From positions 34,516 through 98,515 of IMG/VR virus record IMGVR_UViG_3300028327_000833: a stretch of 64,000 nucleotides of DNA; one strand, written 5' to 3'. Within the stretch, counting starts at the first letter, position 1; each line of letters opens with the position of its first letter. The position numbers and the translations under genes are program-made. Shown in pieces: positions 23,550 to 59,530 of the stretch. The notes below the pieces were generated by a model that was not told where the DNA came from, did not search any database, and saw nothing but the letters and a program-made list of their open reading frames with translations. This DNA comes from a virus. Lineage: Duplodnaviria; Heunggongvirae; Uroviricota; Caudoviricetes.

Positions 23550-23606
23550 TTTAATCCAGGTGCGGCGGTATGCCTGAGAGGGGCGGCGGCGTTGAAAAAA
23601 TCGAAT

Positions 23607-24491
23607 ATGTCCGTTAGCGAAGACAAGAGTCTGGCGCTCTATTTCAAGGAGATAGGGGGCATTCAGCCGCTCACCTCCGAGCGCGAGGCGGAACTGGCCG
23701 CCAAAATCAAGCGCGGCGACCGTAAAGCCGTGCACGCGCTTGTAAAGGCCAACTTGCGCTTCGCGGTCAGCGTGGCCCGCAACTATCAGAATCAGGGGCT
23801 TTCCCTTAGCGATCTGATAAACGAAGGGAATATAGGGCTCGTCAAGGCGGCCGAACGGTTCGACGGAACGAAGAACTTCCGCTTCATTTCCTACGCCGTA
23901 TGGTGGATCAGGCAGACCATTCTGCAGGCGCTGGCGGATCATTCGCGGGGTATGCGTCTGCCGCTTAACCGCGTCGGGGCGATACATAAGATAAATAAGG
24001 CGCAAATCGACCTTGAACAACGTCTCAACCGTATGCCCGACACCGCCGAACTCGCCCGCGAACTGTCGATGACGGAGACCGGCGTCGCGGACGCGTTGGC
24101 GATGGCGGACAGCTGCAGTTCGCTCGACGCGCCTATGGCCGACGGCGGCTCCCCGCATATAAGCGGACTGGCGGACATATCGGCCGTCAACGGGCCGGAC
24201 GAGATACAGGCGAAATCCACGCACGAAGAACTCGAACGGATACTTGAGTGCCTGTCCGACCGCGAGCGGGAAGTCGTCAAAATGTCGTACGGCGTAGACT
24301 GCGACGCGGGTTACACTTTGGAAGAGATAGGGCGTAAATTGAAACTTACGCGGGAGCGGGTGCGGCAGATAAAAGACAAGGCGATGCGTCAGTTAAGGAG
24401 CTCTCAGGGCGTGGATCAGCCGGTGCGCAAGCGGAGGCCTAAAGCGGGTTCGCGCGACAGATCGTGCAATGCGTCGAAAGGCAAGGTCTGA
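23607..24491 (+). CDS. RNA polymerase sigma factor, sigma-70 family
   Basis: region 2 FRFISYAVWWIRQTI; region 4.2 HTH TLEEIGRKLKLTRERVRQIKDKAMRQLR. Confidence 0.8.
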   Translation: MSVSEDKSLALYFKEIGGIQPLTSEREAELAAKIKRGDRKAVHALVKANLRFAVSVARNYQNQGLSLSDLINEGNIGLVKAAERFDGTKNFRFISYAVWWIRQTILQALADHSRGMRLPLNRVGAIHKINKAQIDLEQRLNRMPDTAELARELSMTETGVADALAMADSCSSLDAPMADGGSPHISGLADISAVNGPDEIQAKSTHEELERILECLSDREREVVKMSYGVDCDAGYTLEEIGRKLKLTRERVRQIKDKAMRQLRSSQGVDQPVRKRRPKAGSRDRSCNASKGKV

Positions 24492-24493
24492 CG

Positions 24494-26206
24494 ATGGCCG
24501 TCAAATACCCTATATCCCGAATCGAGACGGTTTTCCGCCGGCTTATGCGGCACGTCCGCGGTATGCGCGAAACGGGCGAACCCGTCTTATCGGTCGCCGA
24601 GGTTGACCGCCTCGTCGGCAAAATTCGTAAAATTTCGCCAGGGCACCCGTCGCTTGAAATCTGTCCGTGGGGTTGGCGCGTCGGCCCGACCTATGAACAC
24701 CCTGAATTATGCGGACAGGTCATTCCTCGCATTCCGGCGGTTTACCGCAGCGCTTCCGAACTTCCAAAACCCGTGGAAGGAGATTCGCTGATTATAACGC
24801 CGAAATTCGAGGGAGTCTCTGTCGTCTGCCACTACCGTAAAGGTATATTGTTGCAATGTTCCGCGCAAATGGACGGGCGGTGCGGGTGGGACGTCACGAA
24901 TAACGTGATTTCACGCATACCGCTTGTAATTCGCCCGTATTCGCAGCGCAGAGAGCGGTTTACTGGATATATTCAGTGCGTCGCCACCGTCAACGCGAAA
25001 GAGTTTTTCAGGAAATTTCCGAAAGTAACCGCTTATGTCACCGACAACCCGCTCAAAGAAACTATCAGCAACCTACTGTGGGCTAAAACGGATGTTCCGC
25101 GAAGCTCGTGCTATATAAAGATTATCCCTGTGAATATCTATCACAGCGGCGAGGGGCAATTCGTGCGCGTCGGAAGCATGGGATGGCGCGGCTATACGCA
25201 AGATTTTAAGGATCAGTTGCAATACCGAAAGGTTGAGTTCAGTTCCAGGTGCGACCTCGGGCTGACGGAACGCACTGCGTCGGAGCTGGCAGGGCCGCAC
25301 CCGCACAACGGGCTTGTGGCGCGGATGTATAATGAAGACCTTGTGTTTAAAAAGATATTTGTATATAAACTGAAAGGGGATGTTATGTCTCATCAGACTA
25401 CGGTCGTAGAAACTAAATGGTTTACCTCCGACAGCGGCAGACTGGATCCTATGATCTTCTGTACGCCTGTTGACGTTGACGGTCGGTTTGTAGAATCAGT
25501 CTGGGGGCAGTCGCATCAATTCATTGCCGCAAACAAAATAAGCGCTGGAGCGAAACTAGAAATAGTTCGAAAACCGGGAGGACAGGTGGTTGTTCAAAAC
25601 GTCGCGCGCGGCGCGAACCCGTTCAATCCTAACGTGCGTTGCCAGTTCGGGTGCGACCCTGAATTTATCGAGATTGATACGGTTCACGCATACTGCCGCA
25701 ATCCGAGATGTCCGGGTACAACGTTAAACATGCTCGACAAACTGTGCTACATCTTCGCGCCGCAATTTTTCAATAAAGAAACGCGGCGGAAGATATTGGA
25801 TTATTTTCATAACAACATTTTCGAGTTTATTGACTTTTACAAAAACATGGAAGATTTAAGCGGTTTCTCAGCCAAAATCGACGGCGTGAAAGGGTTAGAC
25901 CACTACAGTTGGATAAAGTACGGACGCATGCTGGAGCGGGTATTGAAGTGGGAACTGACGCTCCCGCAGCTTTGCTACCTTGCCGGCATTGAATCTATGG
26001 GCGGGACTCAGGCGGATTTGATAAGCCGCAGGGCGTCATCCGACAAAGAGCTTACCGAGTGGGCTAAGGAAACTTCCGCGCTTCCGAGAGACTGGGGGAT
26101 CAAGCCGAGGGCGTCGGAGAATTGGGCCCGGCGGCATTACATGGTTAAAGAAATACTGAAATCTTTCAAACTGAGAAAGGACGGAAAAAGTGGTAAAGTT
26201 GCTTGA
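24494..26206 (+). CDS. divergent NAD-dependent DNA ligase (LigA)-like protein, no BRCT
   Basis: adenylation motif ITPKFEGVSVVCHYRKG (KxDG-like); LigA-type Zn finger CQFGCDPEFIEIDTVHAYCRNPRCPG. Confidence 0.55.
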   Translation: MAVKYPISRIETVFRRLMRHVRGMRETGEPVLSVAEVDRLVGKIRKISPGHPSLEICPWGWRVGPTYEHPELCGQVIPRIPAVYRSASELPKPVEGDSLIITPKFEGVSVVCHYRKGILLQCSAQMDGRCGWDVTNNVISRIPLVIRPYSQRRERFTGYIQCVATVNAKEFFRKFPKVTAYVTDNPLKETISNLLWAKTDVPRSSCYIKIIPVNIYHSGEGQFVRVGSMGWRGYTQDFKDQLQYRKVEFSSRCDLGLTERTASELAGPHPHNGLVARMYNEDLVFKKIFVYKLKGDVMSHQTTVVETKWFTSDSGRLDPMIFCTPVDVDGRFVESVWGQSHQFIAANKISAGAKLEIVRKPGGQVVVQNVARGANPFNPNVRCQFGCDPEFIEIDTVHAYCRNPRCPGTTLNMLDKLCYIFAPQFFNKETRRKILDYFHNNIFEFIDFYKNMEDLSGFSAKIDGVKGLDHYSWIKYGRMLERVLKWELTLPQLCYLAGIESMGGTQADLISRRASSDKELTEWAKETSALPRDWGIKPRASENWARRHYMVKEILKSFKLRKDGKSGKVA

Positions 26207-26396
26207 AGTTGAAAAGCATTATATCTTGGCTAAGATTCCCGACAATGAATTGGAGCTTGTGACATTTAAAAACGGTAAGACAGGATACGTCCGCTATACT
26301 TTTGTCAAGACGACTCCTGCAATTCTAAAGGAGATCGAAAACGGTTCGGATAAATATAGAACTCACCACAGGTCTACGGAAAGGAGCAAAAACTAA

Positions 26397-27239
26397 ATGG
26401 CTTTCAACGAGATGAGCACTCTGGAAAATTTATACGACCCGCGAAAAGAAAAGCGGCGGTTAAGGATAAGTCCGTCCGTAATTTGCAATTTGAAGTGCCC
26501 GTATTGCAACACCGCGCCGTGGATCAATAAGGGATGCAACGTCCCGATTTGGCCAGTAAATATTATTGAATTTTGCAAAATATACCGCCCGACTGAGATA
26601 ATCCTGTGCGGAACTGGTGAGACTGTCTTATGTCCTAATTTTTTAGACCTCTGGAAAGCGGTAAATAGCGTCGAATCGGTCACAAACATACGGCTGATCA
26701 GCAATATTATAGCCCGTCCAAAGCAGTGGTGGGATGCGTGTATTTTATCACGCAATCCTGCAATAGATGTCGGAATAATAGGGTCGGTGCATTTAGACCA
26801 GGGCAACATAGGCGCCGTCAAAGCGTTAATGCACGATTATGCGACCATCCGTAAAAAGACGGTCAACTCGGAGAATTTTTTGCATCTCGATAAAAAATTA
26901 CAAATATCAGCAAATATTTTAATCAGCTGCGGCTCCTCGGTTATTCTGAAAACCGAATATCAAAAAGACCCGGTTTGGTTTACCGAGCCGAATGTGTCGT
27001 TTTTTTGGGACTGTTTTATCGCCGAAACAGAAAAGAGTGAAATTATGCGGGAATTAGGCGTTTTATCCAGTATCCTGAATATTAGCCAACTACGCAGAGC
27101 TGACGATGCTAGTCTTAACTGCGAGTTTGATGCCGACTCTGTGGCGATAGCCTTAACCGACAAAAAAAATCTCTTAGTCATTAAAATCGATGCAGACTTA
27201 AAACAGTATTTGCTGTGTGACATAGTAAACAGGCCGTAA
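26397..27239 (+). CDS. radical SAM protein (small, single-cluster type)
   Basis: CNLKCPYC (Cx3Cx2C), CGTGETVL. Confidence 0.65.
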   Translation: MAFNEMSTLENLYDPRKEKRRLRISPSVICNLKCPYCNTAPWINKGCNVPIWPVNIIEFCKIYRPTEIILCGTGETVLCPNFLDLWKAVNSVESVTNIRLISNIIARPKQWWDACILSRNPAIDVGIIGSVHLDQGNIGAVKALMHDYATIRKKTVNSENFLHLDKKLQISANILISCGSSVILKTEYQKDPVWFTEPNVSFFWDCFIAETEKSEIMRELGVLSSILNISQLRRADDASLNCEFDADSVAIALTDKKNLLVIKIDADLKQYLLCDIVNRP

Positions 27240-27277
27240 ACTAAATCTGAATATTACTTGAAAAAGGAAATGCAGAT

Positions 27278-28093
27278 ATGCCGAATGAACAACCTATATG
27301 GGAAGCTGACAAAGTCGCGGTCTTCTCGCCGCATCACACTTGCAATTTCAAGTGCCCATACTGTATATCCGCGACGCAGACCGAGGCGAAGCCCGACTCG
27401 CGGGTATACGATAGCTCTATATGGATCGATTTAGTCCAAAATAACTGGATGATCGAAATTTCAGGCGGCGAGCCTCTATTATCGCCGCAAACTATCATGT
27501 TCGCCAACAAATTGGTCGCAATGGGCGGCAGAGTCCTGATTCTGACGAATGGCACGAATTTGCAGGAGTACGAGCGTCTGCTGTCGGACGGCGTCGGAGT
27601 CCTTGCCTGTTGGCACCCGTCACAAATACCGCTGAGGGAGTTTTATTGCGTGAGCGAGCGTAAGAACACGAAATACAAGTACATGCTGCATCCACAGTAC
27701 TTGGAGCAATGCGGGCGGTTTTGGCGGGATATGGAGCAATGGAAGTCCGCCGCAAAAAAAAACGTGCTTAACATCGGAGTGTTTGAAGGGGAAATTCAGG
27801 GAGAGTTCCTTTGCGCTGACCATCCGCGATACAGATTTTTGACAGAAGACGGACGGGACAGCTACATACGGCACCTGTTCATGCCAAGAAAGAACCTGAT
27901 AATCGAAAGTAATGGAAGCGTATACGGGAACTACTATATGGATCAGCCTATGGGCAGTGTGTTCGACTATGACATGAGGAATCTTGAAACGCTGCCGCCG
28001 AAACCATACATAGCGATCCGCAAGGATCTGAGGGATTTGGAAAAAGCGCAGATTGCGTATGCGAAGGCGATAGACAAAGTGTTTCAACCGTAA
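27278..28093 (+). CDS. radical SAM protein, paralogue of 26397-27239
   Basis: CNFKCPYC, ISGGEPLL. Confidence 0.65.
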   Translation: MPNEQPIWEADKVAVFSPHHTCNFKCPYCISATQTEAKPDSRVYDSSIWIDLVQNNWMIEISGGEPLLSPQTIMFANKLVAMGGRVLILTNGTNLQEYERLLSDGVGVLACWHPSQIPLREFYCVSERKNTKYKYMLHPQYLEQCGRFWRDMEQWKSAAKKNVLNIGVFEGEIQGEFLCADHPRYRFLTEDGRDSYIRHLFMPRKNLIIESNGSVYGNYYMDQPMGSVFDYDMRNLETLPPKPYIAIRKDLRDLEKAQIAYAKAIDKVFQP

Positions 28094-28221: not shown

Positions 28222-29295
28222 ATGTCACAAGTACAAGTAGATACGACGCCGCTGACCGAAGCCCAGCAAAAACGCTTAAAAAAACTTCTGAAAAAAGAGG
28301 CGCAGATAGAAGCGGAGCATAAGGAGTTGATCGAGTTGAAGTACGCCGACCCTGAGTTTTGGCGGCGGTCGCACGACCCCAAGCGATGGACGGTAACGGC
28401 TAAAGAGCGCTGGAAAAGCCGCGCCGAAAGGTGGCTGGAGGCTCCGGCGGACTATCGCCGTCAGGTGACCCGCAACGTTTCTTTGGGGGAGGTAGGAAAG
28501 AAGGCGCGAGTCAGTTGCGAAATTGTCGTGCCGTCGGTTAAAATCTACGAATACTTAAAAAGCAAAGCAAATTTACCCGAAACCGCCAGCGCGTCGAGTA
28601 AAGCCTACGAATACCCAAAAAGCGGAGCAGATTTACCTGAAATCGCCATCGCGCAGACGGTGCTGTCTATAGAGGCCGCCATAGAACGCAATTTTTTAGA
28701 TTGTAATTATACGGCGGTCTTTGCAATTCCAGAAGACCACATCAAATTCTGCATAACGCACGGATTTCTGTGGAGAGCCCCGTTTGCGAATCTCGAAGCG
28801 GCGGATTATATCTGCGGTCTCATACGCGAAGCCAACGTAGGTCATACTTTGCAAGTTGAGGAGTATATCGACGAAGCCGAGATCAAGAGCGCACGGTTGG
28901 CGGAGGCGGCAGCCGACCCTTCCCGCGCGATTAAATTCGTTAATGTGACTGTGACCGAAGAGCGCGAGTTCGTCATACCGACAGCTAAGATAAACCAATA
29001 CCTGAAAAAAATGCTGAAGTTTCCTGACGACGAAATCTCTGCGACGGTGACGGCGATCAGCAAGATAATAAAACAGGCGAACAAGAACGACGCTTCCGAC
29101 ATTCTTGTCATACCTTGGGTGTTGATTAAGGGTTGCTTAATGGGGAAAACTGGGCGCACGGATTACCAGTCGCAGCTGCTTATAGACGCCCTCTATTCTT
29201 TCTTCAAAGACGCCAACTACGGCAAGGTGTCTGCGAATGAAGGCGAAATCGTAGACGATTACGAGTTGCCGAGGCCGGTATTTAATACTTTATAG
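28222..29295 (+). CDS. hypothetical protein (357 aa) with internal 60-bp imperfect tandem repeat (28537-28656)
   Basis: KIYEYLKSKANLPETASAS / KAYEYPKSGADLPEIAIAQ; C-terminal codons and stop supplied by IS left end. Confidence 0.45.
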   Translation: MSQVQVDTTPLTEAQQKRLKKLLKKEAQIEAEHKELIELKYADPEFWRRSHDPKRWTVTAKERWKSRAERWLEAPADYRRQVTRNVSLGEVGKKARVSCEIVVPSVKIYEYLKSKANLPETASASSKAYEYPKSGADLPEIAIAQTVLSIEAAIERNFLDCNYTAVFAIPEDHIKFCITHGFLWRAPFANLEAADYICGLIREANVGHTLQVEEYIDEAEIKSARLAEAAADPSRAIKFVNVTVTEEREFVIPTAKINQYLKKMLKFPDDEISATVTAISKIIKQANKNDASDILVIPWVLIKGCLMGKTGRTDYQSQLLIDALYSFFKDANYGKVSANEGEIVDDYELPRPVFNTL

Positions 29296-29346: not shown

Positions 29347-29904
29347 ATGAAACTATCTAATTATGCTAAAAATCTCGGAATCTCTTATTTGACCGCGTAC
29401 AGGCACTACAAAGCAAATAAGATTAAAGGCGCTTATCAGCTAGAGTCTGGGACAGTAATTGTTCCAGACTTAAATTCCGTAAGTAAACCTGACTATACTG
29501 TTATTTACAGCAGAGTCAGTTCGTCTGAAAATAAAAGCAACCTGGAGAGCCAGGCAGAGAGGCTTATGCAATTCTGTAATGCAAAAGGGTGGGTTGTTAA
29601 AGAAGTTATAAAAGAATGCGCATCAAGGTTAAACGATAACCGCCCTAAATTATTGAAGTTATTTAAGGAGAGGCGGGCAACTAGACTCGTGGTGGAGCAT
29701 AAAGACCGCCTAACCAGGTTTGGATTTAATTACATAAAAGAACTTTATAACGAGTGTGAAATTGTAATTTTAAATGAAGCTGAAAATCGAAATGATTTAA
29801 TGCAAGACTTTGTTTCGTTAGTAACCTCTTTTTGCGCTATGTTATATGGACAACGAAGGACAAAACGACAGACAGAAAAGTTAATCAAGGAACTTGAAAA
29901 ATGA
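29347..29904 (+). CDS. tnpA: IS607-family TnpA, serine recombinase with N-terminal MerR-like HTH
   Basis: catalytic serine motif VIYSRVSSSENKSNLESQ; 185 aa. Confidence 0.8.
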   Translation: MKLSNYAKNLGISYLTAYRHYKANKIKGAYQLESGTVIVPDLNSVSKPDYTVIYSRVSSSENKSNLESQAERLMQFCNAKGWVVKEVIKECASRLNDNRPKLLKLFKERRATRLVVEHKDRLTRFGFNYIKELYNECEIVILNEAENRNDLMQDFVSLVTSFCAMLYGQRRTKRQTEKLIKELEK

Positions 29905-31040
29905 AGTTCAACAGAAGCGTCAAATGCCACTTCTCGAAGTGGATAACCGGAAGCAAGTCCGGCCGTATAAAAGACTTGCTTTCTGAGTATGACGCCGTAG
30001 CGACTTCGGCTATAGACGGTATAAAAAACCGCATAGAAGACGGCGACTCTAAGTTCGACGTCTTTAAAAATTACAAAGTACCGGAAACGTGGCTGACGGC
30101 CAGAGCGAAACAAGTCGTTTTAGCCGAAACCTACGGCGTGGTAGACGGCCAGATTAAAAGTTGCAAAGAGTTAAAACAGCCGTATACGAAACCTAAACAC
30201 TGCAAAACAAAAGCCGTTTTGTCGAGTCAGCTGGTATCTGTAAACCTTAACCCTGATTTAGAAGACTTTGATCTTCTAGTAGAGTTAAAATGTTTCGACA
30301 GCAGAAGGAAAGCGGTTAAAATAGCGATACCCTTGAAAAAGAACCGTTGTTTTGAAAAATGGAACACTAAAGGCAAACTTTCAAGTTCCGTTATTTTAAC
30401 GGATAAATATATCCAGTTTTCGTTTGAGGCTGATGTCCCTAAGAAAACGGAAGGTGGCATTCTAGGCTTAGACCCCGGAGCCACGAATCTTTTAACATCA
30501 GACGAGGGCGTTGTTTACGGCGACCGTATAAAGCCGCTTTTACAGAAACTTAAACGTAAAAAACGCAACTCAAGGTCGTGGAAAAAATGTAAAAAAGAGA
30601 TTAAATATTACATTTCTAAAACATGTAAAGAGTTGCCTTTTAAAGAAACTAAATTAATCTGTATTGAAAATAACAAGGATATTAAAAGAAACAGCAAAGT
30701 TAAAGGACGCTTAACTAAAAATATGCGTTCAGTTCTCGACGGCTGGACAAGCGGGTTGCTGGACAGCAGGGTAGAAATGCTCTCAGAGGAAAACGGTGTT
30801 TCCCTCAGACGAGTGCCTGCTTTCCACAACTCCACTACTTGTCCGGTCTGCGGTCACGTCGAGAAGGGGAACCGGTTAAGTCAAGAGGCGTTCAGGTGTC
30901 TGTCTTGTGGCTATGCAGACAAAGCCGATATGGTCGGCGCTTTAAACGTCCTTGGCCGCTTCTCCCTCGGAAAATATGGTTCCGGGTTCAAAACCGAGTT
31001 TGTTAAAAAACATGCAGGTTATTACGCCTGCAAGATTTGA
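29901..31040 (+). CDS. tnpB: TnpB, 379 aa
   Basis: GLDPGATN, LICIENN, CPVCGH..CLSCGY, ADKADMVGALN. Confidence 0.85.
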   Translation: MKFNRSVKCHFSKWITGSKSGRIKDLLSEYDAVATSAIDGIKNRIEDGDSKFDVFKNYKVPETWLTARAKQVVLAETYGVVDGQIKSCKELKQPYTKPKHCKTKAVLSSQLVSVNLNPDLEDFDLLVELKCFDSRRKAVKIAIPLKKNRCFEKWNTKGKLSSSVILTDKYIQFSFEADVPKKTEGGILGLDPGATNLLTSDEGVVYGDRIKPLLQKLKRKKRNSRSWKKCKKEIKYYISKTCKELPFKETKLICIENNKDIKRNSKVKGRLTKNMRSVLDGWTSGLLDSRVEMLSEENGVSLRRVPAFHNSTTCPVCGHVEKGNRLSQEAFRCLSCGYADKADMVGALNVLGRFSLGKYGSGFKTEFVKKHAGYYACKI

Positions 31041-32475: not shown

Positions 32476-32640
32476 GTGATTGAAGAGCTGAGCAAAAGTT
32501 GTCCGAATCACGTGAAGAACGAAATTAACGCGACGTTTGCCAAGAACGTAGTGAATCCTGACTTTACGGATAACTGCAACAAGCTGGCGAAACAAGCGGC
32601 AGGCAGAGTCAAACAACCTAAAGGCGAAGGACGGCTATGA
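32476..32640 (+). CDS. small hypothetical protein (GTG start)
   Basis: GGGGGA RBS; overlaps pncB start by ATGA. Confidence 0.3.
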   Translation: MIEELSKSCPNHVKNEINATFAKNVVNPDFTDNCNKLAKQAAGRVKQPKGEGRL

Positions 32641-33845
32641 TTATCACATCGCTGTTAGACTGCGATCTGTACAAATTTAGCATGGGAGCCGCGTATTTTG
32701 ACGGGTTTGCCAATACTACTGCGCGGTTTGTGTTCAAAGACCGTACTAATAAAATCCCAGTTACCGAGTTATTTATCGAAAGGCTCGGGCGCGAGGTCGA
32801 TTCGTTATGCAAGTTGAAATTCAGTACCGAAGAGTTAGATTATCTTTTCGGACTTAGATTTATGAAAGATAAGGTCGGGTATAGGGAATATTTGCGGAAC
32901 TTCCGACTCAATCCCGATTGGATTCATATTTACGGAGTAAATGACGGCGGCAAACTTGCGGCGGTAGAGATTCATACAGCAGAAGCCCCGCTGATAGCCG
33001 TCAGTATGTTTGAAATTTATATCCTTGCAATCGTGAACGAGTTGTATTGCCAGGATAACAACGTGTACCCTCCTCGGTATGAGCGCCAACTTGCGGAGGA
33101 CACTGCGAAGCGGTTTGATGCGCTCGAATGCCCTTTCATCGAAATGGGTACGCGAAGGCGAATATCGGGAAGTTTTCAAGATAAACTAATTGGCGAGTTA
33201 AAAAAGAATTCTAAATTTCTGGGGACAAGCAATGTTTATCTTGCGATGAAGCACGGCGTAACCCCAAGCGGGACGCAAGCTCACGAGTATTTGTGTACCG
33301 GGCAAGGACTTCCTCATGTGCCCGTAGCCGACAGTCAGCGGTATATGTTCGATTTCTGGGCGCGACACTTCAACGGGGACTTGGGCATAGCCTTGTCGGA
33401 TAATCTAGGCACGGACAAGTTTTTGGAAGACTTCACTTGCTACTATGCCAAACTGTTCGACGGTGTCAGACATGACTCAGGTGACCCGTTCGTATGGGGC
33501 GAGCAGATGATTAAAATGTACGAGGGTTACGGGATCGACCCGAAATCCAAAAAATTGGTATTCAGCGACAGTCTATCTCTGGAAAAGGCCAACGCTATCT
33601 ACCGCAAATTTAAGGATAGAGTCAAAGTTGTAGCTGGAATCGGGACGGCGTTGACGAATCCGATCAAGGATAAGGCGACCAATATCGTGATGAAGATGGT
33701 CAGTTGCAACGGGCGGCCTGTGGCTAAGTTATCAAACAACCCAGGCAAACAAATGTGCGAGAATGCCGATTATGTGCGTTATTTGAAACAGGTGGTTAAG
33801 TTCAATGACAGCTACGAACTGTCCGAAGAGGATGGCTGGGAATAA
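32637..33845 (+). CDS. pncB: nicotinate phosphoribosyltransferase (PncB)
   Basis: blocks GTRRRISGSF, GTSNVYLAMKHGVTPSGTQAHE, LGIALSD, GVRHDSGDPFVWGE, LVFSDSL, GIGTALTN, NIVMKMVSCNGRPVAKLSNNPGK align to E. coli PncB. Confidence 0.85.
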   Translation: MIITSLLDCDLYKFSMGAAYFDGFANTTARFVFKDRTNKIPVTELFIERLGREVDSLCKLKFSTEELDYLFGLRFMKDKVGYREYLRNFRLNPDWIHIYGVNDGGKLAAVEIHTAEAPLIAVSMFEIYILAIVNELYCQDNNVYPPRYERQLAEDTAKRFDALECPFIEMGTRRRISGSFQDKLIGELKKNSKFLGTSNVYLAMKHGVTPSGTQAHEYLCTGQGLPHVPVADSQRYMFDFWARHFNGDLGIALSDNLGTDKFLEDFTCYYAKLFDGVRHDSGDPFVWGEQMIKMYEGYGIDPKSKKLVFSDSLSLEKANAIYRKFKDRVKVVAGIGTALTNPIKDKATNIVMKMVSCNGRPVAKLSNNPGKQMCENADYVRYLKQVVKFNDSYELSEEDGWE

Positions 33846-33947
33846 ACTTTTAACCTTCTAAGGAGGGCGTTATGAGTGAACATAAGAAGCCTGGCGAGGT
33901 TCTTACTGAAGCCGAGGCGGGTTTTATCAGCGCAACGGAGGGAAAAA

Positions 33948-34835
33948 ATGTATACTTACAAGTTTGATGTAGAGAAAGTGACGAAAGATTGCGTCGCGTG
34001 GATAAAAAGATGGTTTGCCGAGAATGGCGGCGAGAGACCTGCCGCGATTGTCGGCGTCAGTGGAGGCAAGGACAGCGCGGTCGTCGCGGCATTGTGCGCC
34101 GAAGCTCTCGGCAAGGACAACGTTATAGCGGTGCTGATGCCGAACGGCGAGCAAAAGGACATTGCGGATTCCTGGAAAATTATATATCACATAGGTTTGA
34201 AGAGAATTATCCTCTCTAACATCAGCGACACTGTCAATGGGCTATTCGCTAATTGCGGTGTTGTTGAAGATTGTGTTAAGTACAACCTAAACCAACGGTT
34301 TTGGTATCCAGAAACAGCAAGCATTGCTTGGAACAATCAAGCCGCGGTAAACGCACCTGCGCGGATTCGGATGGCTACGCTGTACGCGATGGCGGCTCAA
34401 TACGGCGGTCGGGTGGCGAACACCTGCAACCGCAGCGAGGATGTGTGCGGGTACGCGACCCTCTACGGCGATTCGGCTGGCGACTTCAGTCCGCTGTCCA
34501 AGCTAACTGTGACGGAAGTCATCGCAATCGGCGAATACTTGGGTTTGCCACAAGAGATTACTCGTAAGACTCCGAGCGACGGCCTGTGCGGGAAGTCGGA
34601 TGAGGAATCTTTGGGCATGAAGTACGCCGAACTCGATGAGTGGCTCCGCGAAAGTAAGCGCGAGAGTACTATCGGCATCAAAGTCTGGGATATGTGGATG
34701 AGCCGCGGAAGGTTCAAACTATCTCTGATAAATCTACCGTCTTTCGACCCCGACCTTTATGACAGGATAGAAGATGTGGATTATGAGCGCAATCAACCAA
34801 GAGGCGAAGTAAGACTCATAAAGAGTATGCCTTGA
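33948..34835 (+). CDS. nadE: NH3-dependent NAD+ synthetase (NadE)
   Basis: PP-loop VGVSGGKDSAV; RBS ACGGAGGG before ATG 33948. Confidence 0.85.
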   Translation: MYTYKFDVEKVTKDCVAWIKRWFAENGGERPAAIVGVSGGKDSAVVAALCAEALGKDNVIAVLMPNGEQKDIADSWKIIYHIGLKRIILSNISDTVNGLFANCGVVEDCVKYNLNQRFWYPETASIAWNNQAAVNAPARIRMATLYAMAAQYGGRVANTCNRSEDVCGYATLYGDSAGDFSPLSKLTVTEVIAIGEYLGLPQEITRKTPSDGLCGKSDEESLGMKYAELDEWLRESKRESTIGIKVWDMWMSRGRFKLSLINLPSFDPDLYDRIEDVDYERNQPRGEVRLIKSMP

Positions 34836-36504: not shown

Positions 36505-36509
36505 GCGTC

Positions 36510-36540
36510 TAATTTCGGGGTCAATTTAGCGTACTATTGC
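36510..36540 (+). promoter_or_regulatory. degenerate copy of conserved motif (AATTTCGGGGTCAATTTAGCGTACT|ATTGCC), truncated at the cassette junction
   Basis: 26/30 identical to 37262-37291 up to GCGTACT, then diverges. Confidence 0.5.
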
Positions 36541-36576
36541 CACTTGCGGTTTGGTGTTACATGAAGGGCTTTCTAT

Positions 36577-55369: not shown

Positions 55370-56467
55370 TCAGTCCCCGCCTAACTCGTTGATGAGCTCT
55401 TCGGCGCTGTTGATAGCCCCGATAAGCTCCCTGCCGCGATCCGTCAAAATAGCGATCTGCTGTTTGTACTCGGTGATCCTGGCGTCGATTTGGCTGAACT
55501 CCAGTCGGTACTTATCCAGCTTCGTGATAAGTTTCTGCCTGAAGGGCGTCGGATCGCCGGTAAGCGCAGTCTCCCCCGCTTCGCGCAAGGGCTTTGCCGT
55601 TACCGCCTGAACATGGTTTACGTCTAAATTCGGAGCTTCCACTTTCAACTCTCCTGTGGTTAGTTTGTTTATGGAATAGTTAGGGTCGTACCAGTCGTCT
55701 AAAACGTTGCCTATCGGTTTCGGATCCTGCCAGCACCCGATCACGTCTCCCGCGAAGTAATCGAAACCGCGCACGATGATGTTTTTGTAACCGGGTCTGC
55801 AGGCGCAGTGCGGCCCTCCGTGACAGTATTCGGGATGCACCAAAGCCATCTCTTCGGGCGTGTAGTACGGCGTGCGGCTGCGCCCCGCGATCGGTTTGAA
55901 GTCCTGAATCCGGAACTCAATGCCTTGCGCCTCCGCGCTCGCTTTGTGTTCCAGGATACTCTGCTTCAGATACGGAAACAGTATCTCTTTTATGTAGACG
56001 GTAAAACCCGCGTTCTTGAACAGATAGACGGTTTTGTAGAACTTGTCTATCGCGGCTTGCGGATCGGGCGTCTTATCGATAGACTTTCTATGATAAGTGA
56101 AACCTATCCTGTCGATGACGTCTTTCCGCTTGACGACTTCGTTGTAGAAGTCCTCGTCTCCGAGGCCGTTCGTCTGAAGCTGAAAAGAACTCTTGCCTAA
56201 GTTGTCGAGAACGTTCAGCACGTACTCTTGACACTTAGGGTGGGACATCTCGCCGCCCGAGAGCTCGACGAGGAACTCGCTCGCGTCCGCGAGGTGCTTG
56301 TCGCGCCACGCTTTGAACCGGTCGAGCGTGAAGACGCAGACGTCCTCGTACTTTTCAAGGAATTTTTCGCGGCTTTCCGCTTGCAGTTTCCAAGCCTCGG
56401 AGTGGAAACAGTACGGGCATTGCAGCCCGCATTCGATTGGAATCGGAAATTCCAAGTAGTATTTCAC
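55370..56467 (-). CDS. radical SAM protein (third paralogue), GTG start
   Basis: CGLQCPYC, LSGGEMS; AGGAGG RBS. Confidence 0.6.
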   Translation of the reverse strand: MKYYLEFPIPIECGLQCPYCFHSEAWKLQAESREKFLEKYEDVCVFTLDRFKAWRDKHLADASEFLVELSGGEMSHPKCQEYVLNVLDNLGKSSFQLQTNGLGDEDFYNEVVKRKDVIDRIGFTYHRKSIDKTPDPQAAIDKFYKTVYLFKNAGFTVYIKEILFPYLKQSILEHKASAEAQGIEFRIQDFKPIAGRSRTPYYTPEEMALVHPEYCHGGPHCACRPGYKNIIVRGFDYFAGDVIGCWQDPKPIGNVLDDWYDPNYSINKLTTGELKVEAPNLDVNHVQAVTAKPLREAGETALTGDPTPFRQKLITKLDKYRLEFSQIDARITEYKQQIAILTDRGRELIGAINSAEELINELGGD

Positions 56468-56481: not shown

Positions 56482-57477
56482 CTACGGTTGATTCTGTAAG
56501 GTTTTAAGTAAAGCGTAAATATCTGTTATTCCGGTACTGTCGTCGTCTTTAGTTAAAGACAAGGCGTTTCCGTTTGCCGTGAATGTAAACTCGCCTATTT
56601 TTAAGCTGGCTGTCGTGCCTTGTAAATTGACAAACGCGGATCGACTGTTCGCCGTTCCGCAAATAAGCATAGGCGAGTTACCTTGTATCTTGACTGTCGC
56701 GCCGGCCGAGTCTTCCGTTCCGCAAATAATACGGGATCCGTCGCCGTGAACTTGAAGCGTATTGCCGCTAGCCCCCAAACCGATGTTTACGTCGCTACGA
56801 CCGTGCATACTAAACTCGTTAGAATTCCCCATCATGTGCAACTCGCGTTTACTCTGCAGACCAGTGCCGATATACACATACGAGTCGTTGTGTTCGTCGC
56901 CAAAAACAGCGGACACAGCCGGTCTGCTATCGCCGATTCCGAGATATAGCTCGTGCGAAGACAAATACGTGCCAGTGTATCTGTCAAAAGAACCGTATGG
57001 AAGCTGAATGCCGCTCCAATTTTCTGAGGATACAATGTCGTACAAGGTCGAACCCGACTCATGCTTCCAGTAGGCGGAGGTGTATCTGGTGCAGAAAGAG
57101 TATCTTCCGGCTCCGAACTTCAGTGTCGTATCTTCATCGCCGTTGACACTGATATGAGAATTTTGATCTATACGGGTATGGACGTCCTTACTGAACGAAA
57201 TGCCACCCCTGGAGTAGACTGTGTCTGTGCTCGCAACTACATGATCGCGGTTTAACACCTCTTTCGAGGGAACGAAACTTAGACAGTTAATACTCTTTTT
57301 GTCCCCTCGGTCGCCTATCAGTCCTCCGCCGTTCCAGATAAAATCGGCGTCTATCTTTTGAAAATTATAGTTTAAATCAGCCACCCGGACATTGTCGGTT
57401 CTGTCAGGCAAGGCTAAGTCCGCTTTCGGCGTCCACTTCCCGTCGGGATTCAACTCAGGTTTCTCGAAATTGCTCAT
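56482..57477 (-). CDS. putative tail fibre/beta-helix protein (331 aa)
   Basis: start at MSNFEKPE (RBS AGAGGAG); repetitive Gly/Ser/Thr-rich beta-strand-like segments. Confidence 0.4.
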   Translation of the reverse strand: MSNFEKPELNPDGKWTPKADLALPDRTDNVRVADLNYNFQKIDADFIWNGGGLIGDRGDKKSINCLSFVPSKEVLNRDHVVASTDTVYSRGGISFSKDVHTRIDQNSHISVNGDEDTTLKFGAGRYSFCTRYTSAYWKHESGSTLYDIVSSENWSGIQLPYGSFDRYTGTYLSSHELYLGIGDSRPAVSAVFGDEHNDSYVYIGTGLQSKRELHMMGNSNEFSMHGRSDVNIGLGASGNTLQVHGDGSRIICGTEDSAGATVKIQGNSPMLICGTANSRSAFVNLQGTTASLKIGEFTFTANGNALSLTKDDDSTGITDIYALLKTLQNQP

Positions 57478-57481
57478 TTTT

Positions 57482-59530
57482 TTAGTCTCCTCTCGTGTTA
57501 CAGCAGGCATATCGCGAAGTTCCGTTATTGCCGCTAATATCCGCCCACCGCGTATTCGCCCATCTCCCCCACGCCGTAGGTTCCATATCCATCCACCGCC
57601 CGTCGCTTCCGCAGTCCGCAACCCTGAAATGCGGCAGGTAGTGGTACGAGTTCAGCAGCGACCACCGCTGAAAACCGTCCGCGGCCGCGACTCCGCTTTC
57701 CAACGACCCCCACGTCCGTATCTCATACTCCCGCCACGCATGAGGCTCCAAATCCCGCCAGCGTTTGCCGCCGCCCGTAAGCCTTGCCGTCAGTTTCACT
57801 TTTTGGAACGCCGGAACCCTGACCTTCAGCGTCGCGTCAGGGTACTTTCCGTCCATATAGTTTTCCCGCCAATAATAACCTTTTATCTCCCCGCTCAAAA
57901 CCCGCCCGTCCATTTCCGCGTCGGAAACCAATGCGTCCCGCTCCGTCAGCCCGAACTCGGAACCGTCCTCCCTTACGCCTACGGCGTCCGTACGGGAAAT
58001 CCATGCCCCCATAGGCCCTATGCAGGGAAGCACGGTCAAAGTGTGCGGCTCTGCCCCGACGGAATCCTGCGGCGGAAAAACCCCGAAACTCGACGCGTGG
58101 TTTAAAACGCCGCCGTCCGCCCGATCCAGTAAATAGACTTCGCTCTCCATCCTGATCCACGCGGGGATCAGGAACTCGATCAGTCCGCGCAGATGGCAGG
58201 TTATGCGCTGCTGCGCTTCGGGATTCGTAACCGACCCGTCGGCGTTCGCGTCCGGCCCTAAAAAATTCGCCAAATGCAGACGGTACATACTATTGTCGGG
58301 ATTGTAATTCGCCGTCCACAGACGCAACTCTTTCGACAGCTCTTTATAGTACCCCGCCTCGCGCGTAATTACTTTATAAGTGTATATCCATTCCCAATCG
58401 TCGGAATCCCGCGCCTTTCCGTCCGAATCGGGTTCGGGAGGCCTGATCGGATTTTCACGGTTTTCCCAATCGCGTTTCTTCCTGAAAAGCAGACATCCGC
58501 GATAATCTTTCCCGCCGCCGTTCCCTGTCCAGTTTAAGAAACAGTAGTCGCCGGCTTTAAAATCCTTGTTCGCTTCGCGGTCTTCGTCAGACCACGCTTT
58601 TCCGCGTATGTGCGTAAATCCGCCGGCCGCGTTTTTGACTCCTAAACCGAATTCAGGTTCCGCGAAGCTGTCTCTTAAGCGTTCGAACTCCTGATAATTC
58701 CGTTTCAGGCGGCTGTCGAAGTCCTTTAACGCCTCTTCGAGTTTAAGTTTTATCGCGGCGTTGAATTCGTACGCCTCTTCAGGCTTCAGCCTTTCGACGT
58801 CGGCCTCCAAGTTTATCAGGTTCAGGTACGCTTTCAGCCCGTAAACCGTCCCTCTTACCGAACGGAGCAGGTCGACGACGCCTTTAAGCTGCCGCCTCGA
58901 ATCGGGATGTCCGAGCAAATCGTAATAGTACCAAGCCGGCACGCCCTTCGACAAAACGAACGCGTCCAGCAGCTGCGGCTGCACGGACTGCAGCCTCACG
59001 TATTTGTTAGGATATTGCGTAACCTCTTCCGTCACGTTCTCCCAGACGGACGGCTTCCAAAAACAACGGCCGTCGGAATCCCGATGCGTCAGTTCCGCTT
59101 TTACTCCGCCGCCGGAATTCGACGGCGCTAAATAATAAGCCCCGCCGATTTCGCGGATTTCCGACGGGACGGGTTCCGCGCCGCCGGCCTCCCTGTACGT
59201 CACCCGCAAGGCCGGACGGCGGTTCAGGTTCATGGACTGCCTGAATTTGTCCGGAGATTCGGCGCGGGCGGCCTCGATTTCGTCGGGAGCCGCGACCCAC
59301 CACCGCGGAGGTTTGCGCAGCTTGCCTGTTTCGTCCGCGTAGCCCGCGATTTCCGCTCCCGGCGGAAGACCGTCCGTCTTCCCGTCCGCTCCCAGAATCC
59401 TGACCTCGCCCTCGGCGTCCGCAAGATCGCCTTCGGAGTACCTTACGTCGGGACGCCACCGCCCTTTTAACCGTCCGGGCGCGGGAGGCGCGTCAAGCTG
59501 GAAATAGGTCTCGGAAGTTTCGGTAGCCAT
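57482..59530 (-). CDS. large structural (baseplate-like) protein (682 aa)
   Basis: long ORF at head of the - strand operon. Confidence 0.4.
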   Translation of the reverse strand: MATETSETYFQLDAPPAPGRLKGRWRPDVRYSEGDLADAEGEVRILGADGKTDGLPPGAEIAGYADETGKLRKPPRWWVAAPDEIEAARAESPDKFRQSMNLNRRPALRVTYREAGGAEPVPSEIREIGGAYYLAPSNSGGGVKAELTHRDSDGRCFWKPSVWENVTEEVTQYPNKYVRLQSVQPQLLDAFVLSKGVPAWYYYDLLGHPDSRRQLKGVVDLLRSVRGTVYGLKAYLNLINLEADVERLKPEEAYEFNAAIKLKLEEALKDFDSRLKRNYQEFERLRDSFAEPEFGLGVKNAAGGFTHIRGKAWSDEDREANKDFKAGDYCFLNWTGNGGGKDYRGCLLFRKKRDWENRENPIRPPEPDSDGKARDSDDWEWIYTYKVITREAGYYKELSKELRLWTANYNPDNSMYRLHLANFLGPDANADGSVTNPEAQQRITCHLRGLIEFLIPAWIRMESEVYLLDRADGGVLNHASSFGVFPPQDSVGAEPHTLTVLPCIGPMGAWISRTDAVGVREDGSEFGLTERDALVSDAEMDGRVLSGEIKGYYWRENYMDGKYPDATLKVRVPAFQKVKLTARLTGGGKRWRDLEPHAWREYEIRTWGSLESGVAAADGFQRWSLLNSYHYLPHFRVADCGSDGRWMDMEPTAWGRWANTRWADISGNNGTSRYACCNTRGD

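What the first reader, a model, noticed from the sequence alone, without database searches (positions are those of the whole stretch)
26397..28093. Three paralogous small radical-SAM enzymes (tandem pair here plus one inside the tail module at 55370-56467)
All three carry an N-terminal CxxxCPYC cluster motif (CNLKCPYC, CNFKCPYC, CGLQCPYC) and a GGE SAM-binding motif (GTGETVL, SGGEPLL, SGGEMS). They are otherwise diverged, at 280, 271 and 365 aa. The motif resembles the QueE, NrdG, PFL-activase and viperin subgroup (CNxxCxYC). No NrdD, QueC/QueD, or peptide substrate gene is evident nearby. Three copies in one phage, including one between tail-fibre genes, is unusual. They may point to nucleotide or nucleic-acid modification (7-deazaguanine or another hypermodification, possibly on tRNA given the tRNA load) or to post-translational modification of virion proteins.
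Basis: partly seen in the sequence, partly recalled or inferred. Interest (0 to 1): 0.55.

Follow-up and report, generated by a model that had tools for sequence, protein, structure and literature searches.

The report
Three divergent phage radical-SAM enzymes
This large phage carries three real but only distantly related radical-SAM enzymes from uncharacterised phage lineages, and one of them belongs to a family that is repeatedly encoded right behind tail-fibre genes, hinting at an unstudied radical-chemistry step in making phage tails.

Summary
Three ORFs carry CxxxCPYC plus a GGE-type motif: rSAM-A (26397-27239, +), rSAM-B (27278-28093, +) and rSAM-C (55370-56467, -). They are the only 3 of 268 ORFs with that motif. 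They are not close paralogs, because only the N-terminal core aligns.

No family assignment holds for NrdG, PFL-AE, QueE, viperin or MoaA; all scores fall far below the curated cut-offs. AlphaFold models of B and C are closest to the MoaA / twitch-SPASM / viperin structural branch.

- **rSAM-C:** it belongs to an uncharacterised family found in phages, prophage-like regions and metagenomes (about 45 members seen). The family has three invariant C-terminal cysteines, possibly a MoaA-like auxiliary cluster. Long forms also carry a C-terminal coiled-coil-like helix. In most long-form loci the gene sits directly after large tail-fibre or tail proteins and before holin and endolysin genes.
- **rSAM-B:** it has about 6 relatives among 1.84 billion representatives, in mixed contexts. 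These include ThyX and dCMP deaminase, a Dam-like methylase, and fibre genes alongside C-type rSAMs.
- **rSAM-A:** it is an orphan.

My best reading is that C is a tail-fibre-linked maturation or modification enzyme, and that A and B are a nucleotide- or nucleic-acid-directed pair. Function is inferred from gene neighbourhood only. Multi-rSAM phages are already known (CP220 has 11). Interest is moderate.

The parts
26397..27239 (+). rSAM-A, 280 aa. It is an orphan and a highly divergent radical-SAM-like protein. The cluster motif C30/C34/C37 lies at 26484-26507 and GTGE at 26610-26621.
   Evidence: ORF. Pfam Radical_SAM 20.6 bits, below the gathering score. The only database match is itself. 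hhalign against the B-family profile gives 76% probability over 107 columns covering beta1-beta4, and against the combined profile 60%. GC is 0.42-0.45 against about 0.50 in the surroundings.
27278..28093 (+). rSAM-B, 271 aa. It starts 39 nt after rSAM-A. The cluster motif C22/C26/C29 lies at 27341-27364 and GGE at 27464-27472. It has no conserved auxiliary cysteines.
55370..56467 (-). rSAM-C, 365 aa. The cluster motif C13/C17/C20 lies at 56408-56431 and GGE at 56249-56257.
55733..55807 (-). Putative auxiliary-cluster site of rSAM-C: C221-x-C223 ... G240-x4-C245. All three cysteines are invariant in the family.
   Evidence: Invariant columns in A1 (34 sequences) and A4 (10 sequences, including distant short forms). 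The spacing C223-x16-G240-x4-C245 resembles the first half of the SPASM/twitch signature (my own knowledge). The top fold match, MoaA, has an auxiliary cluster held by three cysteines (PMC9012708). Metal binding was not tested.
55385..55549 (-). C-terminal 55-residue amphipathic, coiled-coil-like helix of rSAM-C (residues 307-361). It follows a disordered linker at residues 285-304.
   Evidence: AF2 secondary structure and pLDDT. The feature is present in the long-form family members and absent from short forms of 262-299 aa. A profile search gives only weak matches to myosin rod at E 0.15-0.9.
26190..26396 (+). A 68-aa ORF that abuts the start of rSAM-A and overlaps the end of the LigA-like gene. 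Its function is unknown and it has no cysteine.
   Evidence: no family hit.
23592..26206 (+). Upstream genes in the same orientation as rSAM-A and B: a sigma-70 factor (23592-24491) and a 580-aa protein like an NAD-dependent DNA ligase (24464-26206).
   Evidence: Pfam Sigma70 regions r1.2 to r4 are hit. DNA_ligase_aden scores 25.2 bits, below the gathering score of 27.
28222..29295 (+). A 357-aa protein of unknown function downstream of rSAM-B. An IS607-like element follows it.
   Evidence: no significant family.
56482..59530 (-). Two genes upstream of rSAM-C on the same strand, of 682 aa (57482-59530) and 379 aa (56482-57621). They are putative tail or fibre proteins. A 14-nt gap separates them from rSAM-C.
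   Evidence: The 682-aa protein is 38% identical over 509 aa to a 1226-aa protein two genes downstream of the rSAM-C homolog in L006; that protein carries a Fib_succ_major domain. Neither gene has a PHROG, Pfam or GenBank phage match.
50999..55364 (-). Four genes downstream of rSAM-C on the same strand, of 134, 394, 574 and 389 aa. They are putative receptor-binding or fibre proteins. A 5-nt gap separates rSAM-C from the first.
   Evidence: The 394-aa protein hits CBM_5_12 at 24.1 bits, below the gathering score of 26.2. 'Y..GD.V' repeats are visible by eye. There is no PHROG or GenBank phage match.
62002..62445 (+). An M15/VanY endolysin near the rSAM-C operon.
   Evidence: Pfam VanY 42.5 bits and Peptidase_M15_4 40.7 bits. 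It is 52% identical to the endolysin in rSAM-C locus L007.

Best explanation
The window encodes three genuine radical-SAM (rSAM) enzymes that are only anciently related. They come from uncharacterised lineages found in phages and metagenomes, within the MoaA / twitch-SPASM / viperin-like structural branch. Each should bind a [4Fe-4S] cluster through CX3CX2C, cleave SAM to a 5'-deoxyadenosyl radical, and abstract a hydrogen atom from a substrate. This follows from superfamily membership and was not assayed.

rSAM-C belongs to a family defined by CX3CxYC, GGE, QLQTNG, FT(Y/F)HR, VYVKE, RIQDF and an invariant CxC...GxxxxC triad. I infer that the triad holds a MoaA-like auxiliary cluster with three cysteine ligands. 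The long forms, including this one, add a flexible linker and a coiled-coil-like helix. They are encoded inside late tail operons, typically as the gene straight after a large fibre or tail protein and before holin and endolysin genes.

The most likely role is a late-expressed enzyme that modifies or matures a tail-fibre or receptor-binding protein, or a group attached to it, before assembly. The helix would dock it onto the fibre. It occupies the genomic slot usually held by a tail-fibre assembly chaperone. This role is inferred from gene neighbourhood.

rSAM-A and rSAM-B form a tight gene pair in the sigma-factor and ligase region. B, and perhaps A, most likely acts on a nucleotide or nucleic acid. 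This is inferred from one ThyX / B-like / dCMP-deaminase arrangement and from weak viperin-like and QueE-like N-terminal similarity.
For: Motifs and their non-random occurrence.

Superfamily and fold. No known subfamily cut-off is reached. No solved structure matches by sequence beyond the N-terminal core.

C-family conservation, including the Cys triad in the distant short forms. MoaA's auxiliary cluster held by three cysteines: PMC9012708.

Gene neighbourhood of C-type genes:
- L003/L004: tape measure, 318 aa, 858 aa, rSAM, holin, M15 endolysin.
- L007: tape measure, 656 aa, 1116 aa, rSAM, holin.
- L008/L015: 737 aa, 1285 aa, rSAM.
- L016: 997 aa, rSAM. L019: 1605 aa, 125 aa, rSAM, 567 aa, 728 aa.
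- L006: the rSAM sits among proteins of 627-1226 aa.
- L002: next to a holin and structural genes.
- Start and stop codons often overlap.

The rSAM is the only gene conserved across these loci; its neighbours are mosaic. A pooled PHROG scan of 66 flanking proteins gave holin in 3 members, many tail fibre and tail protein families, a baseplate hub and a collagen-like minor tail protein. Five of the upstream proteins share a C-terminal motif.

In L013 the order is fibre-like 684 aa, C-like rSAM, collagen-like protein, C-like rSAM, B-like rSAM.

B-type contexts: ThyX | B-like | dCMP deaminase, with the ThyX stop and B-like start overlapping, and a Dam-like methylase next to a B-like gene.

Deep relatedness: C versus B profiles give 82% probability over about 200 columns. 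Cluster cysteines, GGE, NG of the (T)NG motif and the beta4 His are invariant across the B-type, C-type and L013-type families.
Against: There is no biochemical or proteomic evidence; function rests on gene neighbourhood.

Within the window itself, the genes flanking rSAM-C have no significant tail annotation.

Short-form C-family members in 131-264 kb phages sit among small, non-structural-looking genes (L018, L020, L023). L001 has a Cpn10 gene upstream. L017 lies near integrase-like and HNH-like genes. So the catalytic core is not restricted to tail modules.

The compact architecture lacks a peptide-recognition (RRE) domain and a full SPASM domain. That resembles small-molecule enzymes (MoaA, BlsE, AbmM, BtrN, viperin) as much as protein modifiers.

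B-family contexts are heterogeneous. rSAM-A has no relatives and may be inactive.

Some of the PHROG tail-fibre hits may be driven by collagen-like repeats in two of the proteins.
Confidence: 0.4

Rival explanations
1. All three enzymes, or at least A and B, belong to a nucleotide or DNA hypermodification or nucleotide-metabolism pathway and act on free nucleotides or on DNA/tRNA. On this view, the tail location of rSAM-C is incidental.
For: The B-like gene sits between ThyX and dCMP deaminase with overlapping stop and start codons. Another lies next to a Dam-like methylase. In the window, A and B follow a ligase-like gene. The best profile hits for B are viperin, NrdG2, MoaA and QueE. The top fold matches include the nucleotide- or sugar-nucleotide-acting enzymes MoaA, BlsE, AbmM and viperin. 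The architecture is compact, without a peptide-recognition domain. Short C-family forms sit in non-structural regions.
Against: No QueC, QueD, FolE or DpdA was found in the window. All equivalog scores are 4-10 times below their cut-offs, and only the N-terminal 80-100 residues align. The recurrent fibre and lysis neighbourhood of long C forms, and of B-like genes in L013 and L014, is left unexplained.
Confidence: 0.25
2. rSAM-C is a cargo or auxiliary gene ('moron') that tends to lodge at the junction between tail and lysis genes, with no functional tie to tail proteins. It might, for example, alter host metabolism or host surface glycans.
For: Junctions between tail-fibre and lysis genes are common insertion sites for accessory genes (my own knowledge). 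The family also occurs away from structural genes (L001, L017, L018, L020, L023). The neighbouring genes are not conserved.
Against: In the window and in L006, L019 and L013 the gene lies between fibre-like genes, not at a module border. Starts and stops overlap with the upstream fibre gene. The coiled-coil tail is specific to the tail-linked subset. Five upstream proteins share a C-terminal motif.
Confidence: 0.2
3. They are maturases of ribosomal peptides (RiPPs), of the SPASM/twitch type, acting on a small phage-encoded precursor peptide.
Against: There is no N-terminal peptide-recognition domain; the cluster motif starts at residues 13-30. There is no full seven-cysteine SPASM motif and no Pfam or NCBIfam SPASM hit. 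The 68-aa ORF has no cysteine and no family. No conserved small ORF accompanies the C family.
Confidence: 0.08
4. They are activases of glycyl-radical enzymes, like NrdG or PFL-AE, and their partner (for example NrdD) lies outside the window.
For: JGI automated names for two C-family members read 'organic radical activating enzyme'. NrdG2 is the second-best NCBIfam hit for B.
Confidence: 0.04
5. rSAM-A is a decaying or non-catalytic duplicate (a pseudoenzyme or adaptor) rather than an active enzyme.
For: It has no relative in 5.8 billion clusters or in IMG/VR. Its Pfam score is below the gathering score. The TNG motif is replaced by SNI, and only beta1-beta4 align to the relatives' profiles. 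Its GC content is lower than its surroundings.
Against: The CX3CX2C motif and a GxGE motif like that of RlmN are intact. The ORF is an uninterrupted 280 codons, tightly packed between its neighbours.
Confidence: 0.3

Closest known systems
MoaA (GTP 3',8-cyclase), a twitch-domain radical-SAM enzyme
   Different: Sequence identity is 13%. TIGR02666 scores 17.8 bits for A and 29.8 for B, with no hit for C, against a cut-off of 284. The cysteine spacing is CxC...x21...C, not MoaA's CX2CX13C (my own knowledge). No molybdenum-cofactor genes are nearby. B has no auxiliary cysteines.
SPASM/twitch protein and peptide modifiers (anSME, SuiB, CteB, SkfB, PqqE, ChlB)
   Different: There is no peptide-recognition domain, no seven-cysteine motif and no SPASM profile hit. 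The core is much smaller, at about 265 aa.
Viperin and prokaryotic viperins (pVip)
   Different: Only the N-terminal roughly 80 residues match, and the curated cut-off of 180 bits is far from met. The gene is phage-encoded rather than part of a host defence system.
Multi-copy radical-SAM genes of Campylobacter phages (CP220, CPt10, CP21)
   Same: These are phages of low-oxygen hosts with many small rSAM genes of unknown function: 11 in CP220 and 12 in CPt10 (PMC2853527). They give the best GenBank phage match for B (30% over 128 aa) and are among the best viral fold matches for C.
   Different: Similarity is at superfamily level only (TM-score 0.4-0.5). Those genes were described as an exchangeable metabolic module, and no link to tail-fibre genes was reported.
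Tail-fibre assembly chaperones (lambda/P2 Tfa, T4 gp57A and gp38)
   Same: The genomic slot is the same, namely the gene immediately after a fibre gene. T4 gp57A is a small coiled-coil protein, and the C-terminal helix of rSAM-C could play a comparable docking role. Both points are my own knowledge and inference.
   Different: There is no sequence or fold relationship. The known chaperones are not enzymes, whereas rSAM-C has a complete radical-SAM catalytic core.
QueE, NrdG and PFL-AE
   Same: They share the CxxxCxYC-type motif and small size. The N-terminal region gives weak profile hits.

Membership tests
Radical SAM superfamily (PF04055) | A CX3CX2C motif that binds the [4Fe-4S] cluster | tested here: met
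   It is present in A (C30/34/37), B (C22/26/29) and C (C13/17/20), and in no other ORF of the window. It is conserved in all full-length B-family and C-family members.
Radical SAM superfamily (PF04055) | A GGE-type SAM-binding motif and a partial TIM-barrel fold | tested here: met
Radical SAM superfamily (PF04055) | Pfam gathering score of 29.5 bits | tested here: inconclusive
   B scores 30.2 bits and passes. A scores 20.6 and C 13.1, which do not pass. The fold nonetheless shows C to be a member.
NrdG / PFL-AE glycyl-radical activases | An equivalog profile score above the cut-off, and a partner glycyl-radical enzyme | tested here: not met
QueE (7-carboxy-7-deazaguanine synthase) | An equivalog score above the cut-off, and co-occurrence with FolE, QueD, QueC and DpdA | tested here: not met
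   TIGR03963 scores 26.5 bits for B and 14.0 for A against a cut-off of 260. No pathway genes were found among the window ORFs scanned.
Viperin / pVip | A full-length match to NF038283 at 180 bits or more | tested here: not met
   B scores 41.8 bits over residues 20-97 only. A and C give no NCBIfam hit. PADLOC pVip hits are N-terminal only.
MoaA | The TIGR02666 cut-off of 284 bits and a C-terminal auxiliary-cluster motif | tested here: not met
   Scores are 29.8 bits for B and 17.8 for A, with none for C. C has three invariant C-terminal cysteines but with different spacing. The resemblance is at the level of fold.
SPASM/twitch-domain radical-SAM enzymes | A C-terminal cysteine-rich domain that binds one or two auxiliary Fe-S clusters (SPASM seven-cysteine motif, or a twitch subset) | tested here: inconclusive
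   There is no SPASM or Fer4_14 profile hit. C has the invariant C221, C223 and C245, with CX16GX4C spacing close to the first SPASM half-motif. B and A have no conserved extra cysteines. Metal content cannot be tested with these tools.
rSAM-C family (uncharacterised, found in phages and metagenomes; defined here) | The motifs CX3CxYC, GGE, QLQTNG, FT(Y/F)HR, VYVKE, RIQDF and CxC...GxxxxC | tested here: met
   The window protein is the query of alignments A1 and A4 and has every invariant column. Its relatives are 34-83% identical.
Tail-fibre assembly chaperones (Tfa-like) | Homology to known Tfa, gp38 or gp57A families | tested here: not met
   rSAM-C gives no PHROG or Pfam hit of that kind. 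Only the gene position is analogous.

The most novel reading that the evidence does not exclude
The long-form rSAM-C family is a dedicated, radical-SAM-dependent maturase of phage tail fibres or receptor-binding proteins. It docks through its coiled-coil tail and installs a radical-derived modification on the fibre. Candidates include a carbon-carbon or thioether cross-link, an epimerisation or a C-methylation. This would be the first radical-SAM post-translational modification of a virion protein. B-type rSAMs would cooperate in some phages, as in L013.
Probability: 0.25. Interest if true: 0.85.

Novelty: new variant of a known kind. Interest (0 to 1): 0.55.

Why it matters
Radical-SAM enzymes are the largest enzyme superfamily and most remain uncharacterised. 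In phages the well-understood examples are essentially QueE and NrdG (my own knowledge). Here, a family seen in phage, prophage-like and metagenomic contigs, with a distinctive conserved core and a possible auxiliary cluster, is repeatedly wired into tail-fibre operons. The sequences appear to come from anaerobic communities, and their relatives occur in Fibrobacteres and Chitinispirillales assemblies.

If the enzyme modifies fibres, it would reveal a new, oxygen-independent way for phages to stabilise or diversify their host-recognition apparatus. It would also add a new substrate class for radical-SAM chemistry. Even if it acts on a small molecule, the family gives a defined target: about 45 sequences, a confident structural model, and candidate partner proteins encoded next door.

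The work also corrects the idea that these genes are QueE-like or NrdG-like, or an unusual triplication.

Tried and rejected
- **DNA and protein searches of GenBank phages.** Megablast of the A/B region found no match. tblastn of rSAM-C and of three flanking proteins found no match. For B there were only weak N-terminal hits.
- **Word-index homology search.** For A and B it returned only self matches.
- **IMG/VR scans** for A and for the B family found nothing.
- **Genome collection scan (GTDB species representatives)** with the C-family profile found no confirmed relative.
It was repeated with 6 sequences and gave 2 loci.
- **PADLOC** showed only N-terminal pVip similarity, so these are not defence-system members.
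- **PDB sequence searches** found nothing beyond the N-terminal core.
- **Glycosyltransferase idea.** The roughly 200-aa insert in family member P0020 gave no Pfam hit, so the idea was dropped.
- **Is rSAM-A the counterpart of the second rSAM in L013?** No. The L013 rSAMs are distant C-family members and unrelated to A.
- **Does the window's upstream protein share the fibre C-terminal motif?** An HMM built from five loci recovered only its own training sequences and not the window's 379-aa protein. The similarity seen by eye is therefore not supported.
- **Literature.** Searches for a link between radical-SAM enzymes and tail fibres or virion modification found nothing relevant.
- **Promoter/terminator scan and composition profile** around A and B were not informative beyond showing lower GC in A and in the IS element.
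Full report
**Observation.** The three ORFs are real: rSAM-A at 26397-27239 (+, 280 aa), rSAM-B at 27278-28093 (+, 271 aa) and rSAM-C at 55370-56467 (-, 365 aa). Each has the quoted CxxxCPYC motif and a GGE-type motif 40-50 residues later. Among 268 ORFs of at least 60 aa in all six frames, these are the only three with CX3CX2C. Residue shuffles of the 138 ORFs of at least 100 aa give a mean of 0.28 ORFs with the motif. Chance is excluded.

**Relationship between the three.** Pairwise BLASTP aligns only the 17-60 residues around the cluster motif, at E 1e-4 to 9e-3. Profile-profile comparison is more informative. The C-family profile aligns to the B-family profile over about 200 columns (probability 82%, E 1e-5). 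That stretch runs from the cluster motif to a C-terminal hairpin (KNIIVRG..AGDVIGCW aligned with KNLIIE.NGSVYGNY). rSAM-A aligns to the B family only over beta1-beta4 (76% probability, 107 columns). In a combined alignment of the B-type, C-type and a third (L013) type, the invariant positions are the three cluster cysteines, GGE, the NG of the (T)NG motif, a histidine at the end of beta4 and a hairpin glycine. The three are therefore ancient relatives within one clade, not recent paralogs.

**Family assignment.**
- Pfam Radical_SAM scores B at 30.2 bits (gathering score 29.5), A at 20.6 and C at 13.1.
- NCBIfam equivalogs are all missed by a wide margin. For B: viperin 41.8 bits (cut-off 180), NrdG2 36.8 (131), MoaA 29.8 (284) and QueE 26.5 (260). 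A and C score even lower.
- All three touch phrog_13987, described only as 'radical SAM domain-containing protein' (B at E 4e-16).
- PADLOC finds only N-terminal pVip similarity.
- PDB sequence searches find nothing beyond the N-terminal core.

**Structures.** The AlphaFold2 model of rSAM-C, built with its 34-sequence alignment, is confident (pLDDT 86.7). It shows a six-stranded beta/alpha core, a beta-rich C-terminal subdomain, a disordered linker at residues 285-304 and one long helix at 307-361.
- rSAM-B was modelled with 6 sequences (pLDDT 80.6). Its nearest structures are similar: AbmM 12.7, PqqE 12.6, SuiB 12.5, MoaA 12.3 and anSME 12.1. QueE scores 9.8 and PFL-AE 8.9.
- Both sit in the MoaA / twitch-SPASM / viperin branch, not the activase/QueE branch.
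- In the viral structure library, the best matches for C are generic phage rSAMs, including many from Campylobacter phages, at TM-score 0.4-0.5.

**rSAM-C family.**
- The word-index search found 34 proteins at 33-100% identity. They come from metagenomes plus a Fibrobacteres and a Chitinispirillales assembly. IMG/VR added nine loci, including phages of 111-467 kb.
- The family conserves CX3CxYC, ELxGGE, QLQTNG, RIGFT(Y/F)HR, VYVKE and EFRIQDF.
- It also conserves an invariant triad C221-x-C223 ... G240-x4-C245. The spacing C-x16-G-x4-C is close to the first half of the SPASM/twitch signature (my own knowledge).
- MoaA, the top fold match, holds its auxiliary [4Fe-4S] cluster with three cysteines and an open iron site for substrate (PMC9012708). 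I infer a comparable auxiliary site here, but it is untested.
- Long forms (365-473 aa, including the window protein) add a linker, an amphipathic coiled-coil-like helix and often a low-complexity tail. Short forms (262-299 aa) lack these and keep every core motif.

**Context of rSAM-C-type genes.**
- In L003/L004 (Fibrobacteres contigs) the order is tape measure, 318 aa, 858 aa, rSAM, holin, 54 aa, M15 endolysin. Stop and start codons overlap.
- L007 has tape measure, 122 aa, 656 aa, 1116 aa, rSAM, holin.
- L008/L015 has 737 aa, 1285 aa, rSAM.
- L016 has 997 aa, then rSAM. L019 has 1605 aa, 125 aa, rSAM, 567 aa, 728 aa.
- In L006 the gene lies among proteins of 627-1226 aa.
- L005 has 486 aa, 213 aa, rSAM, 61 aa, M15 endolysin.
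- L002 lies beside a holin, with portal-side genes downstream.
- All-against-all BLAST shows the rSAM is the only gene shared by all loci. Its neighbours are mosaic, as expected for fibres.
- A pooled PHROG scan of 66 flanking proteins returned holin (3 members), about ten tail-fibre families, several 'tail protein' families, a baseplate hub, a collagen-like minor tail protein and a virion structural protein. It also returned one integrase and one HNH endonuclease. Some fibre hits may stem from collagen-like repeats.
- In five loci the protein immediately upstream ends in a shared motif, FRLxY...[VI]QK[RH]..SG.W....W.
- Exceptions: L001 has Cpn10 upstream, L017 is near an integrase, and the short forms in L018, L020 and L023 sit among small genes.

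**In the window.** rSAM-C lies in a tightly packed minus-strand run, with gaps of 14 and 5 nt to its neighbours.
- Upstream are proteins of 682 and 379 aa. Downstream are proteins of 134, 394, 574 and 389 aa.
- The 682-aa protein is 38% identical to a protein in L006 that carries a Fib_succ_major domain.
- The 394-aa protein has a sub-threshold CBM_5_12 hit.
- An M15 endolysin lies at 62002-62445.
- None of the flanking proteins matches PHROGs or GenBank phages. The 'tail module' label here therefore rests on analogy with homologous loci.

**rSAM-B family.** The exhaustive HMMER search found 126 hits. Only about six are full-length relatives (E 1e-46 to 1e-21, about 30-37% identity), and the rest match the generic N-terminal core. 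The family conserves the cluster motif, W-x-x-E-I-(T/S)-GGE, TNG, (T)WH(S/P), an SERExT.Y.Y..HP stretch and FFEG. It has no extra cysteines. The contexts are mixed:
- L011: ThyX, B-like, dCMP deaminase, with the ThyX stop overlapping the B-like start. The sample is the same one that holds a 64%-identical rSAM-C homolog.
- L009: Dam-like methylase, a 70-aa cysteine-rich ORF, B-like.
- L012: genes of unknown function, with a GH108 lysin downstream.
- L013: fibre-like 684 aa, rSAM 295 aa, collagen-like 370 aa, rSAM 300 aa, B-like 267 aa.
- L014: fibre-like 421 aa, a fragmented rSAM, B-like.
- The two extra rSAMs in L013 are distant C-family members (hhalign probability 96.4%, E 1e-9). The combination of B-type and C-type rSAMs therefore recurs in another phage, where they are adjacent and interleaved with fibre genes.

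**rSAM-A.** It has no relative anywhere, and only its N-terminal half is recognisable. Its GxGE motif resembles that of RlmN, TNG is replaced by SNI, and its GC content is lower than its surroundings. It may be a very divergent enzyme or a degenerating copy.

**Wider window.** Genes scanned include:
- a helicase, Dam, ThyX, a PP2C phosphatase, a kinase-like protein, a sigma-70 factor and a LigA-like protein;
- an IS607-like TnpA/TnpB element, plus two extra TnpB copies;
- an SPFH protein and an NAD salvage set (NAPRTase, NadE, NMNAT-Nudix and a nicotinamidase-like protein);
- a Clp_N protein, a FliM-like protein and an N4/N6 methylase;
- five tRNAs.

No NrdD, QueC, QueD, FolE or DpdA was seen. 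About 140 kb of the 205-kb contig lies outside the window and could not be examined.

**Mechanism.**
- Shown: the three proteins have the cluster and SAM motifs, and B and C have the fold of radical-SAM enzymes. C-type genes are preferentially embedded in tail-fibre and lysis neighbourhoods.
- Inferred: rSAM-C generates a 5'-deoxyadenosyl radical and uses an auxiliary site held by three cysteines. Through its coiled-coil tail it acts on a neighbouring fibre or receptor-binding protein, or on something attached to it, late in infection.
- A and B act earlier, on a nucleotide or nucleic acid.
- The compact architecture without a peptide-recognition domain keeps a small-molecule substrate fully possible for all three.

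**Comparison and novelty.** These are new, uncharacterised lineages of a known superfamily. Multi-rSAM phages are already documented, with 11 in CP220 and 12 in CPt10 (PMC2853527). What is new is the recurrent placement of a conserved rSAM family in the chaperone slot of tail-fibre operons. I found no literature on this. I rate the finding as a new variant of a known kind, of moderate interest. The interest would be high if fibre modification were demonstrated.

Noticed in passing
window 4667-5806, 8025-9164, 29347-31040: There are three roughly 95%-identical 379-aa TnpB/Cas12f-like genes. Only the third keeps an IS607-type serine-recombinase TnpA (29347-29904). The other two retain just 80-110 nt of the upstream element sequence. 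The element has low GC (0.38-0.41) compared with about 0.50 in the phage, so an IS has multiplied inside a phage genome.
   Followed up: partly
window 32637-38400: A complete-looking NAD salvage set is present: NAPRTase (32637-33845), NAD synthase (33876-34835), an NMNAT-Nudix fusion (35389-36504) and an isochorismatase/nicotinamidase-like protein (37489-38400). This may be NAD+ replenishment against NAD-depleting host defences.
   Followed up: no
window 24464-26206: This 580-aa protein has only a sub-threshold hit to the adenylation domain of NAD-dependent DNA ligase (25.2 bits, gathering score 27). Its candidate motif I reads KFEG where KxDG would be expected (by eye). It could be a divergent ligase or an inactive one.
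   Followed up: no
window 11990-15222: A signalling-like trio is encoded here: a VWA-like protein, a PP2C phosphatase and a 602-aa protein with a weak kinase domain. A phage sigma-70 factor lies at 23592-24491.
   Followed up: no
window 40355-41575 and 44502-45377: A protein with Clp_N repeats and a FliM-like protein (flagellar switch domain, E 2e-12) are encoded in the phage. Both are unexpected for a phage.
   Followed up: no
window 47707-49560: A 617-aa phrog_850 'RNA-binding protein' with an HNH-like segment lies between tRNA-Ile(TAT) and tRNA-Arg(TCT). The window holds five tRNAs in all, between 42357 and 49952.
   Followed up: no
L003, L005, L007, L008, L016 (C-termini of the genes upstream of the rSAM): The proteins encoded directly before rSAM-C-type genes are otherwise mosaic fibre-like proteins, but they share a C-terminal motif FRLxY...[VI]QK[RH]..SG.W....W. 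The conserved Lys and Trp residues would be worth checking as modification sites.
   Followed up: partly
L013 3052-8804: In a metagenomic phage contig, three small rSAM genes are interleaved with a 684-aa fibre-like protein and a collagen-like protein. This is the most compact example of fibre and rSAM pairing.
   Followed up: partly
P0020 (609 aa, rSAM-C family member): This member carries an extra domain of about 200 aa between the rSAM core and the coiled-coil tail. Pfam does not recognise it. By eye it looked like a glycosyltransferase, which is unconfirmed.
   Followed up: partly
window 53797-54981 and 52181-53905 (minus strand): Repeated 'Y..GD.V...G.LY' segments resemble CBM5/12 carbohydrate-binding modules (24.1 bits, just below the gathering score). 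This suggests glycan-binding receptor-recognition proteins.
   Followed up: partly
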